Virus genome (UHGV): UHGV-0322864
DNA length: 40,716 nt
Source of the DNA: a virus
Reading direction: 5' to 3' (one strand)
The translations under genes were made by a program, and so were the position numbers. The notes below the pieces were generated by a model, which searched no databases, was not told the DNA's origin, and saw only the letters and a program-made list of their open reading frames with translations. Each line of letters starts with the position of its first letter. The first letter of the stretch is position 1. This document shows positions 13,714 through 20,034 of the stretch, piece after piece.

Positions 13714-16700
13714 TTAACGAGCTTTCAGTACAGCTACTTCATTCTCCAGAGCTTCAATCTTGTCCAAGAGAACAAGAAGGGCTTCATGATGAAGAGCGGC
13801 TGCTACACCATAGGTGTCAACAGATTTAACATCCTTCACAATTGTTCCATCTTTCAACTCCGTGTCAGAGAATTTAGTAACTTTGACGGCATCCGGAAAA
13901 ACCTTCTCAACATCTTGAGCTAAGAAACCAATACCATTAGGTTTAGAGAGTTTATCCAACCGCTCCCATGTTACACCCTTAATAGCTTTAAGTTTCTCTA
14001 TAGGGTTTTCAATCCGTTTGATATTTGTCTTAAGTCTCTCATCGGAAGTGCTTGCCCAATTCCCTGCTTGTGCCGTTCCATCAGGAAAGAACTTGAAGTC
14101 AGCAGCTGTTCCAGTACCACCATTCACAGAAATCTGAGCGTGCATCAACTCTGTTCCACCACCACGAACACCACCAAAAGTGTAACTGCCATCATACCAG
14201 TCACCAGAGAAATAGGAAACATACCCCGGAGTACTTTGGTTGAAATTGATCATCCTGATAGCGTTCTTCTCACTTGGTGCTACACCAACAGAATTGTTAG
14301 CCCTGACCAGCACGTCAGTAGGTCTTAAGTATGCATCAATTGTTAGTGCCCCGTCAGCCCTCTCTGTTCCAATCTGGGTGATAGCATTGGGAAATACCAG
14401 AGTACCAGCATTATTGAATTTCCATTCCTGGTTTCCATTAAGAATCTTAGCACCAGACTTATTAGAAGCCCCATCTATCTCTCCATAAGCAGACATAGTT
14501 GCTGAGTAGGTTAAATCTGTTCCTATCTTATATTCTGAACGAACCAGACCACCAGATACAGTAAACCCAGCCGATGGTTTAACATCATCGCTATTAATAA
14601 CACTCCAAGAAGTATTAGCAGCAGTAAAGCCACCATTAGCACGAATCACCCAGACACCTATGAAGCTGTTGGTGCGGACTTCGGTCGTGTTGTCGCGACC
14701 ATAAGAGGCGTTTGATAGGCCCGCTCGAAAGCCGACGGAAAGCGCTGGTGTGGTTCCTGCGCCTAACGGAATATTAAGTGCTGGATCAGCCGCAAACATC
14801 GCCCCCGTAGGATCTCCATATACGCTCCATATGTTCGCACCAACGGAGCCTGTAATATCAGGCGCGGCGTTCTGCTGAACAGTACCGTCGTTGGCGCTGT
14901 TACCACCGTCACCGCGAGCATACAGACCAGAGATAGAACCGGTTTGAACGCCATTTCTATCAGGAACGCGGAAAGTAGTAGAACCATCACCTAAAGAGTA
15001 TTTACCTCTTTTCTGAGGATCAGCCAGCCAGTCAGCATCTGTGATAGGGCTTAAGGCTTGAGCATAAGCCCATAAATCTGGATATGAAGTACGAGACAAA
15101 AGTTGTCCATCAGAAGGTACATCATTAGAGTGAATTAAAGCACGACTATCAATTAAACGGAAATCACCTATGTTGAAGTTGGACACTCCGTTTAAGCTTG
15201 CACCACTTCCACCACCTCCTTGGTTGCGTAATTGACGAAGGGTAACTGCATCTGAATCACTAACCGCATCACCACCTAAACGAGTGGGACCAATCAATCC
15301 TTCCAGTTTCGTAATATCTGAGTTAACCCCAGAAGAGTTGATAGCAGCAGCACCAATAGCAGCAGGAGTAGGTTTGTTACCTTCAGTGTAAAACTTATTC
15401 TCACCGCTAGGACCAACATGCACAGGAACCGAAGCAGACAGCACTTTTGTGTTACTTGTATCGTTGCCAACCAAGACAGTACCGTCAGAACCAGAGGTGA
15501 TCAAATTAACAGCAACACCATTACTAGAAGTGCCTGTTAATACAATACCTGTTCCTAGATTTAAGTGTCCTGTCATTTTACCACCAGAAGTAGGAAGAGC
15601 ACCTAAATCAGAAGAGGTCAAAGCAACATTACCTGTTACCTCGTCAGGAACTTTTCCATTAACTGCAACAACATATGGAACTTGAGCAAGAGGCTTACCA
15701 TCATACTGAGCATCACTGGTAAGATTTGGAGATCGAATTGCTTCCCCTCCTGTCCAATCAGGCAGACGGATGTTGATGTAGTTTGTAGAATCCGCATCAG
15801 TGATACCGTCAGCAAGTTTACCCCAAGAATAGTATTGCTTTGAACCAGCCTGCCACTCTGTCTCAGAAACTACCGGAAGCTGACCGTTGACCAAAGAAGC
15901 TCCTAAATCTGATGCAGTGTCTTTGGAAACCAAACGACCATCAGCAGGCAAAATACCCGGGTAAGAAACAGGACGAGATGGGTCATATGGAAACATCAAC
16001 AATTCACCAAGATACAGAGATGGGTTCCCTGTCGGGATGGTGATATCAATATTACCAGTTGAGTCAGGAATACGAGAGTTTACTGTTATTACCCTATTCT
16101 CTGTCTTAACTGGGGTTAATGTTTTGTTCGAAGCTACAGTATAAAATTCATATTTGTAATCTTCCCAAACCAGAACGTTCTCACCAGTTTTTCTGTTAAC
16201 AGCATCGGCATCAGCCGCAGCTTTTGTTCTGTATGTTTTAACATAACCATCCACTTTCCCATCAACCTGAGATGTACTGTAAGATGCAACGTTTACGACA
16301 TTATTTAAACCAACTGAAGTTTTATCTAAGACTAGATTAACATCACCGGTAGCTGGAGATCCTCCGTTCACTGCAACTGAACGAACAGATGGGATTAAGT
16401 TAGCGATATCCTCTAAGGTTGTTTTATGTACGGTATTATCGTCCTTATCAACATAGAATCCTAAATCACCAAGCTCAGGAATACCTGTAGGTGCTGTATC
16501 CAAGTCTTTAACAGAACCATCTTTTCCGGGTTCGCCTTCTGGGATACCTAAAGAGATTACACCAGTGTTAGGGTTAAAAGAACCAGTAGCTTGACTCCCC
16601 GGAGGAAGGGTAGTTACATCAACAGACATTCCCAACAGGATATCAAGCTGTCTCTGAACTTCGATTAGTTTCTGGTTAATGAGAGCAACGGCATTATTAG

Positions 16701-17001
16701 CATCCGACACTGCTGCGTTAGTCTGAGCAATAAGTGTCATCAAACGAGCATCTTGATCTTTAAAGTCCTGTTTAAGATCTTCGATATCTTGCTTCATTAA
16801 AACACCTTGTTGATACAGACGTTCTACTTCAGTGATCAAGTCATCAATTGTACCAAACTTAGACTCCGCTAGCAGTGCCCAATATTTGGAGTCAGCTGCA
16901 TATTCTGCTGCTTGCTTGTAAGCTCCGATAGAGCCTTCCTTAGCACCAAACTGCCCAACATCATTCACTGCATCAGGTGCTTGGCTATTATAAACGATCA
17001 T
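13714..17001 (-). CDS. long tail fibre with collar-like module and C-terminal intramolecular chaperone domain
   Basis: 1095 aa; N-terminal coiled coil; shares a ~200-aa module with the 702-aa fibre (DAVTLRQLRN...GKYSLGDGSTTFRVPDRNGVQ...TSWSVIN); C-terminal SDERLKTNIKRIENPIEKLK...ALHHEALLVLLDKIEALENEVAVLK. Confidence 0.8.
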   Translation of the reverse strand: MIVYNSQAPDAVNDVGQFGAKEGSIGAYKQAAEYAADSKYWALLAESKFGTIDDLITEVERLYQQGVLMKQDIEDLKQDFKDQDARLMTLIAQTNAAVSDANNAVALINQKLIEVQRQLDILLGMSVDVTTLPPGSQATGSFNPNTGVISLGIPEGEPGKDGSVKDLDTAPTGIPELGDLGFYVDKDDNTVHKTTLEDIANLIPSVRSVAVNGGSPATGDVNLVLDKTSVGLNNVVNVASYSTSQVDGKVDGYVKTYRTKAAADADAVNRKTGENVLVWEDYKYEFYTVASNKTLTPVKTENRVITVNSRIPDSTGNIDITIPTGNPSLYLGELLMFPYDPSRPVSYPGILPADGRLVSKDTASDLGASLVNGQLPVVSETEWQAGSKQYYSWGKLADGITDADSTNYINIRLPDWTGGEAIRSPNLTSDAQYDGKPLAQVPYVVAVNGKVPDEVTGNVALTSSDLGALPTSGGKMTGHLNLGTGIVLTGTSSNGVAVNLITSGSDGTVLVGNDTSNTKVLSASVPVHVGPSGENKFYTEGNKPTPAAIGAAAINSSGVNSDITKLEGLIGPTRLGGDAVSDSDAVTLRQLRNQGGGGSGASLNGVSNFNIGDFRLIDSRALIHSNDVPSDGQLLSRTSYPDLWAYAQALSPITDADWLADPQKRGKYSLGDGSTTFRVPDRNGVQTGSISGLYARGDGGNSANDGTVQQNAAPDITGSVGANIWSVYGDPTGAMFAADPALNIPLGAGTTPALSVGFRAGLSNASYGRDNTTEVRTNSFIGVWVIRANGGFTAANTSWSVINSDDVKPSAGFTVSGGLVRSEYKIGTDLTYSATMSAYGEIDGASNKSGAKILNGNQEWKFNNAGTLVFPNAITQIGTERADGALTIDAYLRPTDVLVRANNSVGVAPSEKNAIRMINFNQSTPGYVSYFSGDWYDGSYTFGGVRGGGTELMHAQISVNGGTGTAADFKFFPDGTAQAGNWASTSDERLKTNIKRIENPIEKLKAIKGVTWERLDKLSKPNGIGFLAQDVEKVFPDAVKVTKFSDTELKDGTIVKDVKSVDTYGVAAALHHEALLVLLDKIEALENEVAVLKAR

Positions 17002-17826: not shown

Positions 17827-17856
17827 TAAAACAAGAAAAGCCACCCGAAGGCGGCT
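17827..17856 (-). terminator. intrinsic terminator after the capsid/Ig-like genes
   Basis: Minus-strand AGCCGCC-UUCG-GGUGGCU (one G.U pair) followed by UUUUCUUGUUUU. Confidence 0.65.
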
Positions 17857-17892
17857 TTATTCTTATGCAATCTCTTTACTAGTTACTGTACC

Positions 17893-18849
17893 TTATACTG
17901 CTTTAGGAGTAGCAGGAATAGAACAAGTAGCTGTAACTGTAGTTTGAGATTTATGTGTTGCCTTAGCTGTAACAGTTTCAACACCCGGATCATCTGCAAG
18001 AGTGAGATTACCAGAGCTATCTACTGTACCAGCAGCAGTTGGGGTTACTTCATAGTTGAAGTTAGTTGCAGCAGTATTACTCGTAAACATATCAGCAAAA
18101 GGTATTACATCGCCACCAACTTTAGCCTCTACAGTTTTAGCTGTGATGGCAGCTTTAGGAACCACACCACTGATAGTCCCTGTAGCAGTAACACTTGTCT
18201 GCGTCTTGTGGGTAGCAGTAATAGTGATATCGCCTGTAGCATTATTCGCTAAAGTAACAAGACCAGTATCAGGGTTGATAGAGGTAGTCATTCCAGAAGG
18301 AGTAGCTACTAGGTTATAATTGGTTGCTGAAGAGTTAGTTGCTGTGAATAAGTTAGCAAACGTAACAGTATCACCACCAATTTTACCAGTGACAGTTTTT
18401 CCAGTAATAGCTGCTTTAGCAACAACACCTGTAAAGGTTACAGTGGCTTCCACACCTGACTGAGTTTTATGGGTAGCTTTAACAGTGACTGTACCTGTTG
18501 CATTGTTGCTTAGAGTTAAAACTCCTGCTGCGCTAACAGTTCCTGTTGATGATGGAGCTACGACAAAAGTATAATCTTCTGCTGAAGAGTTGGTTGCTGT
18601 GAACATTGTAGTAAAGGCTGTAGTGCTTCCACCCACTTTACCAGTAATGTTAGCTTTGGCTTCGATAGTAGCAGGTTCAAAAACAGATTGAACCGTAGCA
18701 GTGCCTTTCTTACCACCTTTAGTAGCCGTAATAGTTGCTGAGGTTTCTTGCGACGCACTCGGTGCAGTATATAGCCCAGAAACAGAAACAGCCCCACCGC
18801 CCTCAACGGACCAACTAAATCCGGTTGTGCTTGTGGAGCCGTCGCTCAT
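17893..18849 (-). CDS. Ig-like (three Big_2-type repeats) capsid decoration module, probably made as a -1 frameshift extension of the major capsid protein
   Basis: Three ~95-aa repeats each ending ...TVTAKATHK(S/T)QT...; no SD before the annotated ATG; frame open upstream into the capsid gene (see findings). Confidence 0.7.
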   Translation of the reverse strand: MSDGSTSTTGFSWSVEGGGAVSVSGLYTAPSASQETSATITATKGGKKGTATVQSVFEPATIEAKANITGKVGGSTTAFTTMFTATNSSAEDYTFVVAPSSTGTVSAAGVLTLSNNATGTVTVKATHKTQSGVEATVTFTGVVAKAAITGKTVTGKIGGDTVTFANLFTATNSSATNYNLVATPSGMTTSINPDTGLVTLANNATGDITITATHKTQTSVTATGTISGVVPKAAITAKTVEAKVGGDVIPFADMFTSNTAATNFNYEVTPTAAGTVDSSGNLTLADDPGVETVTAKATHKSQTTVTATCSIPATPKAV

Positions 18850-18932
18850 TTCTGCTGTAGCTGTAAACTGCTGAGTAGCCCCCGTCGGAAGGCTTGCAAC
18901 CGACGAAGGACTAACAGTTACGGAATCTACTG

Positions 18933-19994
18933 TTACGCCGCCGCTACCTTTCCCGCAGCAGTGAACAGAACGCCGGAAGCATACGGGTTGCGGTGACGCA
19001 GACCAACTTCCATTTCAATCATCCACTTCTCGTAAGAACCGTCTTTAGCCAGTTCAGTACGTTTCGGAGCACGCAGAACCATCTGGGTCCAGTCAGCGCT
19101 ACGGAAGAAGTAAACTGCATCGGTAGGCATCCAACGGTTAACGATGATTTTGTAGCTCTGGCCCAGCGGGTCAGTGATGCTGTTAACTTCGTAGATGAAC
19201 TGCTTGGTGTTCTCAAAGATACGCTTACGTGAACCCTGAGTATTTTCTTGCAGACCAGCGAAGATCTTAGCATGAGCCGGGTTAATCATGATGATGTCTG
19301 CTTCAGAACCAGCGGTGTACAGTTGCAGGGTCATATCAAAGATATCAGCTTCATCAAAACCAATGTTAGTGGTCGGGTTAGAAGCATTCTGTGCAACTTT
19401 AACAGTTACTGCACCAGTATCCGGGTCAGCAGGACCATTCTTGGTCTTGTCAACAACGCCACCAGCCAGACCACCGTGAGCACACAGGAACTGGAATGCA
19501 CCAGTCTTACGAGCTGCATGGGTGTCATTCAGACCAGCAACAGCAGGATCAGCTGCGGAGTTAGTCAGATACTGGTCAGCCAGAACATCGGTACGAGCCT
19601 GACCGGACAGAAGGATTTTCTCGAGGTCACGCTTGATCTCTTTACCTTTCTTCTCCAGCTGATACATCAGTTCACGACCACGACCGTAGTTAGCGGTGGT
19701 GTTAGCAGTATCAGAAACACGAACAACCTTACGCAGAATCTGAGTAACGTTAGATTTGATAACAGTCGGTTTCATTTCACCGTCTTCAGCACGAGAGCCT
19801 TCGACGTGTGCGTTATTACCGTCAACGCTTGCCAGTGCATCGGTCTGCCAGCTAAAGATAGTCTGGTTGATAGACTCTTTACCGGTCATAGATACGAACG
19901 GGGTATCCTGAGGGGACAGAACAGAAATCCAGTTAGCAAAAGAAAGTTTTTTACCATTCTGGTCATACGATACAAATAAAGTTGGATTAGCCAT
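18933..19994 (-). CDS. major capsid protein
   Basis: 353-aa ORF directly after the scaffold gene; strong SD (TAGGAGC); ends FTAAGKVAAA with a G_GGA_AAG slippery heptamer. Confidence 0.75.
   Translation of the reverse strand: MANPTLFVSYDQNGKKLSFANWISVLSPQDTPFVSMTGKESINQTIFSWQTDALASVDGNNAHVEGSRAEDGEMKPTVIKSNVTQILRKVVRVSDTANTTANYGRGRELMYQLEKKGKEIKRDLEKILLSGQARTDVLADQYLTNSAADPAVAGLNDTHAARKTGAFQFLCAHGGLAGGVVDKTKNGPADPDTGAVTVKVAQNASNPTTNIGFDEADIFDMTLQLYTAGSEADIIMINPAHAKIFAGLQENTQGSRKRIFENTKQFIYEVNSITDPLGQSYKIIVNRWMPTDAVYFFRSADWTQMVLRAPKRTELAKDGSYEKWMIEMEVGLRHRNPYASGVLFTAAGKVAAA
18948..18954 (-). other. candidate -1 ribosomal slippery heptamer G_GGA_AAG near the capsid gene 3' end
   Basis: Capsid frame reads GCG GGA AAG GTA GCG GCG GCG TAA; X_XXY_YYZ pattern; the -1 frame is open from here into the Ig-like ORF; hairpin TAACAGT/ACTGTTA 12 nt downstream. 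Confidence 0.6.
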
Positions 19995-20034
19995 GTTATG
20001 TTAGCTCCTATACTATTAATAATTAATTTGTCGA

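What the first reader, a model, noticed from the sequence alone, without database searches (positions are those of the whole stretch)
17893..19994. Major capsid protein appears to gain an Ig-like (Big_2) decoration domain by -1 programmed frameshifting
Seen in sequence: the 318-aa Ig-like ORF (17893-18849) has no SD before its first ATG, yet its frame stays open about 55 codons further upstream, through the 83-nt apparent intergenic gap and into the last ~27 codons of the capsid gene in the -1 frame. The capsid frame ends GCG GGA AAG GTA GCG GCG GCG TAA, and G_GGA_AAG (~18948-18954, minus strand) is a canonical X_XXY_YYZ slippery heptamer. A 7-bp hairpin (TAACAGT...ACTGTTA, ~18912-18935) starts 12 nt downstream at the 0-frame stop. 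Shifted reading gives ...FTAAGK-GSGGVTVDSVTVSPSSVASLPTGATQQFTATAEMSDGSTSTTGFSWSVEGG..., and the residues encoded by the supposed gap supply the missing N-terminal strands of a Big_2-type domain. Established knowledge: T7 gene 10 makes 10A and 10B by a -1 shift near the 3' end. Inference: virions carry a ~700-aa capsid-Ig fusion alongside the 353-aa capsid protein.
Basis: partly seen in the sequence, partly recalled or inferred. Interest (0 to 1): 0.8.

Follow-up and report, generated by a model that had tools for sequence, protein, structure and literature searches.

The report
Known Kuravirus capsid–Ig frameshift fusion
The capsid gene of this phiEco32/SU10-like coliphage almost certainly makes a second, longer capsid protein carrying Ig-like domains by a -1 ribosomal frameshift at GGGAAAG, but this same frameshift is already published for the phage group, so the finding is correct and not new.

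Summary
The major capsid protein gene (MCP, 18933-19994, minus strand) ends GCG GGA AAG GUA GCG GCG GCG UAA. G_GGA_AAG (18954-18948) is in the slippery phase. The -1 frame is open from 19014 to the stop at 17893-17895, giving a 700-aa, 72.9-kDa fusion.

- Pfam Big_2 starts at extension residue 7, which is 27 residues upstream of the miscalled Met.
- That ATG is the only start codon in the frame, has no Shine-Dalgarno (SD) sequence, and is AAA, CTA or AAG in other clades.
- The heptamer is invariant in 20 related phages.
- The -1 ORF is an extreme outlier: 351 codons, against at most 36 after the other 16 in-phase heptamers in the window.

It is not new. The same GGGAAAG shift is published or annotated for phiEco32, SU10, Paul, YF01 and Privateer. 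Frameshift-appended Ig-like domains on phage coat proteins are a reviewed category.

A longer hairpin (18866-18919, -23.3 kcal/mol) overlaps it and shows covariation (G-C, U-A, A-U). This may be undescribed, and its role is unknown. Interest is low.

The parts
18933..19994 (-). Major capsid protein gene, 0 frame (353 aa, 38.7 kDa), HK97-fold SU10_MCP family
   Evidence: ORF. Pfam PF17236 SU10_MCP, E=1e-76. Residues 1-349 are 100% identical to the solved SU10 MCP, PDB 7Z45.
20005..20009 (-). Shine-Dalgarno AGGAG serving both the MCP and the fusion
   Evidence: Read directly. Anti-SD pairing -6.5 kcal/mol.
18948..18954 (-). Slippery heptamer G_GGA_AAG in X_XXY_YYZ phase, 4 codons before the 0-frame stop
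   Evidence: Invariant and in phase in 20 related phages. Same heptamer annotated in phage Paul and described for SU10, YF01 and Privateer.
18933..18935 (-). 0-frame stop codon TAA of the MCP; it is also the first 3 nt of the small proximal hairpin
17893..18948 (-). -1 frame extension read after the shift (351 codons plus stop TAA at 17893-17895). With MCP codons 1-349 it gives a 700-aa, 72.9-kDa fusion: join(19994..18948, 18948..17893).
   Evidence: YF01's annotated 892-aa fusion is 79% identical over 99% of this product.
18697..18930 (-). Big_2 (PF02368) Ig-like domain, extension residues 7-84; it spans the 'intergenic gap' and the miscalled start
   Evidence: 35.1 bits, profile positions 2-75 of 79.
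18847..18849 (-). ATG that gene callers take as the start of a separate 318-aa 'Ig domain protein'. It is internal Met 34 of the extension, not a real start.
   Evidence: No SD. The codon is AAA, CTA or AAG in other clades. Relatives' records use three different starts.
17908..18678 (-). Three tandem ~86-aa Ig-like repeats (extension residues 91-175, 176-262, 263-347)
   Evidence: Repeat HMM scores 132-136 bits each. AlphaFold pLDDT 94-97. Foldseek hits to tandem Ig arrays. Copy number is 1-4 in relatives.
18912..18935 (-).
   Evidence: -4.3 kcal/mol. Invariant, so there is no covariation information.
18866..18919 (-). Long interrupted hairpin (18 consensus pairs), mutually exclusive with the proximal hairpin; it starts 29 nt after the heptamer
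   Evidence: -23.3 kcal/mol, z=-3.4. It is the RNAalifold consensus. 99.1% of cells are paired, against 29-48% when the partner is slid. One pair occurs as G-C x8, U-A x7 and A-U x3.
17837..17858 (-). Intrinsic terminator after the extension; none lies between the MCP and the extension
   Evidence: Terminators are annotated at the same place in Paul and SU10.

Best explanation
This is the capsid gene of a Kuravirus (phiEco32/SU10-like prolate podophage). Most ribosomes read it to the TAA stop and make the 353-aa major capsid protein. A minority slip back one nucleotide on G_GGA_AAG. The P-site Gly-tRNA re-pairs GGA to GGG and the A-site Lys-tRNA re-pairs AAG to AAA. Those ribosomes continue in the -1 frame for 351 more codons.

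The result is a 700-aa capsid protein whose C-terminus carries a GSGG linker, a Big_2 domain and three further Ig-like repeats. The fusion would co-assemble through its capsid part as a minor species and display the Ig array on the head surface.

Shown here: the sequence anatomy, its conservation, and domain continuity across the junction. Inferred here: the slippage itself, its efficiency, incorporation into virions and surface display. These rest on published protein data for relatives and on established knowledge that A_AAG heptamers are shift-prone in E. coli, as in the lambda G-T gene.
For: - Phase and position of the heptamer, and the open -1 frame.
- Big_2 begins 27 residues upstream of the only candidate start.
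- That ATG has no SD, while all 16 module genes do. It is not conserved.
- Annotated 'starts' for the Ig ORF differ among relatives: 12, 33 or 84 nt after the stop.
- The heptamer is invariant in 20 Gordonclarkvirinae. In all but SU10, -1 ORFs run 172-540 codons past the stop and the +1 frame is closed.
- Outlier test: 351 codons against at most 36 for 16 other in-phase heptamers.
- There is no promoter or terminator in the gap, and a terminator follows the extension.
- Many members of the same MCP family carry Big_2 or Big_1 fused in frame.
- Literature: the Paul GenBank note 'Frameshift at GGGAAAG... PhiEco32 as well (PMID 18294652)'; SU10 (PMC4281155); Privateer, with SDS-PAGE bands and MS (PMC7881722); YF01 and group-wide (PMC9965538); review (PMC5009743).
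Against: - There are no protein data for this phage.
- In SU10, whose MCP is identical through K349, cryo-EM and SDS-PAGE showed no long isoform (PMC9509320; PMC9965538). The SU10 genome has a 1-nt insertion that truncates the -1 product. So the extension is dispensable, and the 2014 MS evidence for SU10 is ambiguous.
- No strong stimulatory structure sits at the canonical 5-9 nt spacing. The proximal hairpin is weak and the strong one starts 29 nt downstream.
- GGGAAAG as a bare motif is not enriched in the window.
Confidence: 0.9

Rival explanations
1. Two separate genes: the Ig-like protein is translated independently from ATG 18849 as a 318-aa free decoration or accessory protein. Most GenBank records of relatives annotate it this way.
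For: Relatives are annotated as 'major head protein' plus 'Ig domain containing protein'. The SU10 cryo-EM paper treats gp10 as a separate protein. PHROG 13745 starts at this Met.
Against: - There is no SD, and no other start codon in the frame.
- The ATG is replaced by AAA, CTA or AAG in other clades.
- It cuts a Big_2 domain after its first strands, and the truncated ORF falls below the Pfam cutoff.
- Annotators chose three different starts.
- The frame is kept open through the gap and into the MCP in 19 of 20 relatives; SU10 is the exception.
Confidence: 0.04
2. The extension is a non-expressed or decaying remnant. The frameshift signal is vestigial in this phage, as the truncated SU10 version suggests, and only the 353-aa MCP is made.
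For: SU10 lacks the long isoform yet is viable. No canonical stimulator sits at 5-9 nt.
Against: - The 351-codon frame is intact.
- Its domains are conserved at protein level across clades while synonymous sites vary.
- Repeat number varies but the frame is always kept.
- The heptamer is invariant, including its wobble positions.
Confidence: 0.03
3. The fusion is made, but by another recoding route: RNA-polymerase slippage at GGGAAAG that produces -1 mRNAs, or termination-reinitiation at the TAA.
For: Sequence alone cannot distinguish ribosomal slippage from transcriptional slippage.
Against: Established knowledge is that transcriptional slippage needs long homopolymer runs, typically at least 6-9 bases. 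Here the runs are 3 G and 3 A. Reinitiation needs a start codon near the stop, and there is none for 28 codons. The X_XXY_YYZ phase is conserved, which matters only for tandem tRNA slippage.
Confidence: 0.02

Closest known systems
phiEco32 / SU10 / Paul / YF01 (Kuravirus and allies) MCP -1 frameshift at GGGAAAG
   Same: Same MCP family (identical to the SU10 MCP through K349). Same heptamer, same position 3-4 codons before the stop, and the same Big_2-led Ig-like extension. The YF01 fusion is 79% identical over 99% of the product.
   Different: Only the extension length differs. This phage has three ~86-aa repeats, like SGF2, giving 700 aa in total. That compares with about 527 aa for phiEco32-like phages and 892-894 aa for YF01 and Paul. 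The spacer from heptamer to proximal hairpin is 12 nt here and 9 nt in other clades.
Proteus phage Privateer MCP frameshift (Grimontviridae)
   Same: GGGAAAG, a -1 shift, and a longer minor capsid protein detected by SDS-PAGE and MS.
   Different: The heptamer abuts the stop (GGA AAG TAA). A hairpin starts 6 nt downstream. The MCP is only distantly related.
T7 gene 10A/10B and T3 gene 10
   Same: A -1 frameshift near the 3' end of a podophage MCP gene yields a minor longer capsid protein. In T3 the extension is Ig-like (PMC5009743; PMC9965538).
   Different: The slippery sequence and MCP family are different. The T7 extension is short and not Ig-like. The extension here is 351 aa with four domains.
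Lambda G/GT tail assembly chaperone frameshift
   Same: Identical heptamer G_GGA_AAG, called the 'classical lambda frameshifting site' in PMC3496638. Low-percent -1 slippage sets a fixed ratio of two products.
   Different: The protein pair is different (tail chaperones, not capsid), and no Ig domain is added.
In-frame MCP-Ig fusions and tandem MCP paralogs (Salmonella phage 7-11, SeKF_80, Cronobacter A24, Aeromonas BUCT695)
   Same: Same SU10_MCP family with C-terminal Big_2-type domains. They likewise give a plain MCP plus an MCP-Ig species.
   Different: They achieve this with a second full-length MCP gene fused in frame to the Ig domain, with no recoding.

Membership tests
Kuravirus-type MCP -1 programmed frameshift (phiEco32/SU10/Paul/YF01) | Upstream gene is an SU10_MCP-family (HK97-fold) major capsid protein | tested here: met
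   PF17236, E=1e-76. 100% identical to PDB 7Z45 over residues 1-349.
Kuravirus-type MCP -1 programmed frameshift (phiEco32/SU10/Paul/YF01) | GGGAAAG in X_XXY_YYZ phase a few codons before the MCP stop | tested here: met
   18954-18948, 4 codons before TAA. Invariant in 20 relatives.
Kuravirus-type MCP -1 programmed frameshift (phiEco32/SU10/Paul/YF01) | Long -1 ORF overlapping the MCP 3' end and lacking its own functional start | tested here: met
   The frame is open from 19014 to 17896. The only start codon is ATG 18849, which has no SD and is not conserved.
Kuravirus-type MCP -1 programmed frameshift (phiEco32/SU10/Paul/YF01) | Extension encodes Ig-like (Big_2) domain(s) continuous across the junction | tested here: met
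   Big_2 at extension residues 7-84. Three further Ig-like repeats.
Kuravirus-type MCP -1 programmed frameshift (phiEco32/SU10/Paul/YF01) | Both short and long capsid proteins present in virions | not testable with these tools
   Only literature on relatives is available. It is positive for phiEco32 (as cited), Privateer and SU10 2014, and negative for SU10 2022.
Canonical bacterial -1 PRF signal (slippery heptamer plus nearby stimulator) | Stable hairpin or pseudoknot 5-9 nt downstream, or an SD-like element upstream | tested here: inconclusive
   A weak 7-bp hairpin lies at 12 nt (-4.3 kcal/mol). A strong, covarying hairpin lies at 29 nt. No SD-like motif was seen on reading the upstream sequence. 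Lambda G-T uses the same heptamer.
T7 10A/10B-type capsid frameshift | -1 shift near the 3' end of a podophage MCP gene giving a minor C-terminally extended MCP | tested here: met
   The architecture matches. The MCP family and heptamer differ, so this is an analogue and not a homologue.

The most novel reading that the evidence does not exclude
The covariation-supported long hairpin (18866-18919) and the small proximal hairpin (18912-18935) compete for the same ACUGUUA segment. The proximal hairpin contains the 0-frame stop codon. They could form a conserved two-state RNA element that tunes the ratio of plain to Ig-bearing capsid protein from an unusual distance of 26-29 nt. Alternatively the long hairpin could act on shifted ribosomes or on mRNA stability. 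No such element is mentioned in the papers I could read.
Probability: 0.2. Interest if true: 0.4.

Novelty: already known. Interest (0 to 1): 0.15.

Why it matters
The value is mainly in annotation. About a hundred public Kuravirus-like genomes, and the PHROG family built from them, list the extension as a separate 'Ig domain protein' with arbitrary starts, although the group's literature describes a frameshift fusion. This window should be annotated join(19994..18948, 18948..17893).

Biologically, a variable array of 1-4+ Ig-like repeats displayed on a prolate head may mediate weak adhesion to cell surfaces or mucus. That could matter for kuraviruses, some of which have been evaluated against pathogenic E. 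coli. The function of the array is still unknown, and SU10 shows it is dispensable in the laboratory.

Tried and rejected
- Savalia 2008 (PMID 18294652, and a guessed PMC id) is not held. The phiEco32 evidence is therefore second-hand, through the Paul GenBank note and three citing papers.
- My first viral contigs DNA pattern had one G too many. Its single hit, L015, is unrelated.
- The corrected pattern on metagenome contigs returned 120 loci, of which only 4 are real Kuravirus junctions (L060, L068, L108, L131). All belong to clades already sampled, so they add no covariation power.
- The stem-loop proposed in the SU10 paper, which encloses the slip site (CUGCUGC/GCGGCGG, -10.7 kcal/mol here), keeps 5-7 of 7 pairs in relatives. 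Its 5' arm is inside the ribosome during slippage, so I rejected it as a classical stimulator.
- The 105-nt region downstream of the heptamer is not significantly more stable than shuffles as a whole (z=-1.41). Only the long hairpin taken alone is (z=-3.4).
- The synonymous-site test shows 62-78% of codon columns varying over the first ~30 extension codons, against ~100% further on. This is suggestive only.
- Self-BLAST of the extension did not report the repeats. A repeat HMM did.
- No tRNAs were found in the window.

Full report
**Observation.**
- The 353-aa capsid ORF (18933-19994) ends GCG GGA AAG GTA GCG GCG GCG TAA.
- G_GGA_AAG occupies 18954-18948 in X_XXY_YYZ phase.
- The 318-aa 'Ig' ORF starts at ATG 18849, after an 83-nt gap.
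- Translating that frame upstream shows it is open from 19014, just after TGA 19017. That is through the gap and 26 codons into the capsid gene.
- A shift after K349 gives 349 + 351 = 700 aa (72.9 kDa), against 38.7 kDa for the unshifted protein.
- The 7-bp hairpin UAACAGU/ACUGUUA is at 18935-18912, 12 nt after the heptamer.

**Is it more than chance?** The bare motif is not enriched: there are 6 copies in the window against 4.8 expected. Context is what matters. Among 17 in-phase X_XXY_YYZ heptamers in 9,954 codons of the window's ORFs, only this one is followed by a long -1 ORF (351 codons, next longest 36). It is also the only one next to a stop and the only one of the A_AAG type.

**What it is.** The window is a Kuravirus-like (phiEco32/SU10-like, Gordonclarkvirinae) coliphage. 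It is distinct from any record in the collection; the best matches are 92-94% identical over 83-87% of 25 kb. The upstream gene is an SU10_MCP-family capsid protein (PF17236, E=1e-76). It is identical to the solved SU10 capsid protein (PDB 7Z45) over residues 1-349, which is exactly up to the shift site.

The extension is modular:
- a GSGG linker;
- a Big_2 domain (residues 7-84; 35.1 bits against a cutoff of 22.8);
- three tandem ~86-aa repeats (132-136 bits each against their own HMM).

The repeats model with pLDDT 94-97 and match tandem Ig-domain arrays in the PDB.

**Fusion versus separate gene.**
- The Big_2 match begins 27 residues upstream of the annotated Met. The ATG-started ORF loses that domain, and its remaining Big_2 signal falls below the cutoff.
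- No ATG, GTG or TTG exists in the frame between 19014 and 18849. ATG 18849 has no anti-SD complementarity (0 kcal/mol), whereas all 16 genes of the structural module have SDs of -6.5 to -12.2 kcal/mol.
- In the 18-sequence junction alignment that ATG is AAA, CTA or AAG in other clades. Annotators of relatives picked three different 'starts', at 12, 33 or 84 nt after the stop.
- No promoter-like or terminator-like site lies in the gap. A strong terminator follows the extension at 17858-17837, as annotated in Paul and SU10.
- In 20 Gordonclarkvirinae sequences the heptamer is invariant and in phase. The -1 frame continues 172-540 codons past the stop and the +1 frame is closed. SU10 is the sole exception.
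- The big protein database holds YF01's annotated 892-aa fusion, 79% identical over 99% of my 700-aa product. It also holds many SU10_MCP proteins with Big_2, Big_1 or other Ig-type domains fused in frame. This is independent evidence that the Ig module belongs on the capsid protein's C-terminus.

**Mechanism.** Tandem -1 slippage on G_GGA_AAG is the best explanation. This heptamer is the 'classical lambda frameshifting site' (PMC3496638), which shifts at a few percent (PMC9965538). The slippage itself, its rate and virion incorporation are inferred for this phage.

On stimulators:
It never varies, so it carries no covariation information.
- RNAalifold instead predicts a long interrupted hairpin at 18866-18919, of -23.3 kcal/mol and z=-3.4. 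In it 99.1% of cells are paired, against 29-48% when partners are slid. One pair occurs as G-C (8), U-A (7) and A-U (3) without exception. There a Ser wobble base co-varies with the middle base of a Pro/Gln/Glu/Leu codon.
- The long hairpin shares the ACUGUUA segment with the small one, so the two are mutually exclusive. It starts 29 nt after the heptamer (26 nt in other clades), which is too far for a canonical stimulator. Its role is open.
- Only 3-4 clades are sampled, so at least two independent double changes underlie this covariation. That is moderate evidence, not proof.

**Comparison with what is known.** This is not new.
- The SU10 genome paper describes the GGGAAAG slippage fusing gp9 to the Ig-like gp10 'as in phage phiEco32', and lists 38.5 and 55.4 kDa forms by MS (PMC4281155).
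- The Privateer paper shows both bands and calls the feature conserved among phiEco32-like phages (PMC7881722).
- The YF01 paper describes it for the whole group, including size variation of the long isoform (PMC9965538).
- The Atkins et al. review lists frameshift-made C-terminal Ig-like extensions of phage coat proteins (T3, A2, A118/A500, PSA) as an established category. It also notes that in-frame and frameshifted versions coexist (PMC5009743).

**Caveat from SU10.** The SU10 capsid protein is identical to this one through K349. Even so, cryo-EM found no extra capsid density (PMC9509320), and a long-isoform band was reported absent on SDS-PAGE (PMC9965538). I confirmed the reason given by the YF01 authors. 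A 1-nt insertion (alignment column 42) stops the SU10 -1 product after 11 codons. It also puts the Ig ORF in the MCP's own frame behind two stops (arithmetic; sequence). The extension is therefore dispensable in the laboratory, and the 2014 MS claim for SU10 is ambiguous.

**Verdict.** Novelty is nil, because it is already known for this genus with the same heptamer. The practical value is correcting the split annotation. The only possibly new element is the covarying long hairpin.

Noticed in passing
window 18866-18919 (-); alignment A1 columns 43-96: A long interrupted hairpin inside the first Big_2 coding region. It has a pair seen as G-C, U-A and A-U across clades. It is mutually exclusive with the small hairpin that contains the MCP stop codon. 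None of the papers I read mentions it.
   Followed up: partly
L009-L012, L028 (MCP relatives at 57-66% identity, including Aeromonas phage LAh_6); junction ...CTG AAG GTA AAG GCG/CCC TAA: These lack GGGAAAG but keep a -1 ORF encoding Big_2 (119 bits) or Ig_3/I-set domains directly after the MCP. The likely slip site is the non-canonical G_GUA_AAG (A_AAG), with a GC-rich hairpin 6 nt downstream in L009-L011. The LAh_6 record shown here annotates the downstream ORF as a separate 'putative tail protein'.
   Followed up: partly
L014 (55% identity MCP relative), junction GTA AAA AAG GCG TAA: A dnaX-type A_AAA_AAG heptamer sits one codon before the MCP stop. Its -1 extension is only 42 aa, rich in Pro, Val and Lys, with no Pfam domain.
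   Followed up: no
L026 (Salmonella phage 7-11), L029 (Cronobacter A24), L033 (Aeromonas BUCT695), L013: These phages have two tandem MCP genes: a short one followed by a second copy. In 7-11, A24 and BUCT695 the second copy is annotated and longer. In BUCT695 and the 7-11-like SeKF_80 the long copy carries Big_2 in frame. This is a duplication route to the same plain-plus-decorated capsid pair that kuraviruses obtain by frameshifting.
   Followed up: partly
L002 (SU10, KM044272) about 30 nt after the heptamer; alignment A1 column 42: A 1-nt insertion (GTCTACTG instead of GT-AACTG) ends the -1 product after 11 codons. It puts the still-intact Ig ORF in the MCP's 0 frame behind TAA and TAG. This is either a recent mutation in the laboratory stock or a sequencing error.
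   Followed up: partly
window 17908-18678 (-) and relatives L001, L016-L022: The copy number of the ~86-aa Ig-like repeat varies from 1 (phiEco32-like) to 2 (Ptacy1479), 3 (window, SGF2) and 4 (Paul). Some phages (Paul, EP335, Bas86-88) carry extension sequence beyond the last recognised repeat, possibly further domains. The module appears to expand and contract quickly.
   Followed up: partly
PHROG phrog_13745 against window extension residues 34-178: The PHROG 'Ig domain containing protein' profile starts exactly at the miscalled Met. The family model itself therefore inherits the truncated annotation.
   Followed up: no
window 13714-17001 (-), 1095-aa ORF: A long tail fibre-like protein whose C-terminal end resembles, from memory, an intramolecular chaperone domain (...SDERLKTNI...). 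I did not test this with any profile.
   Followed up: no
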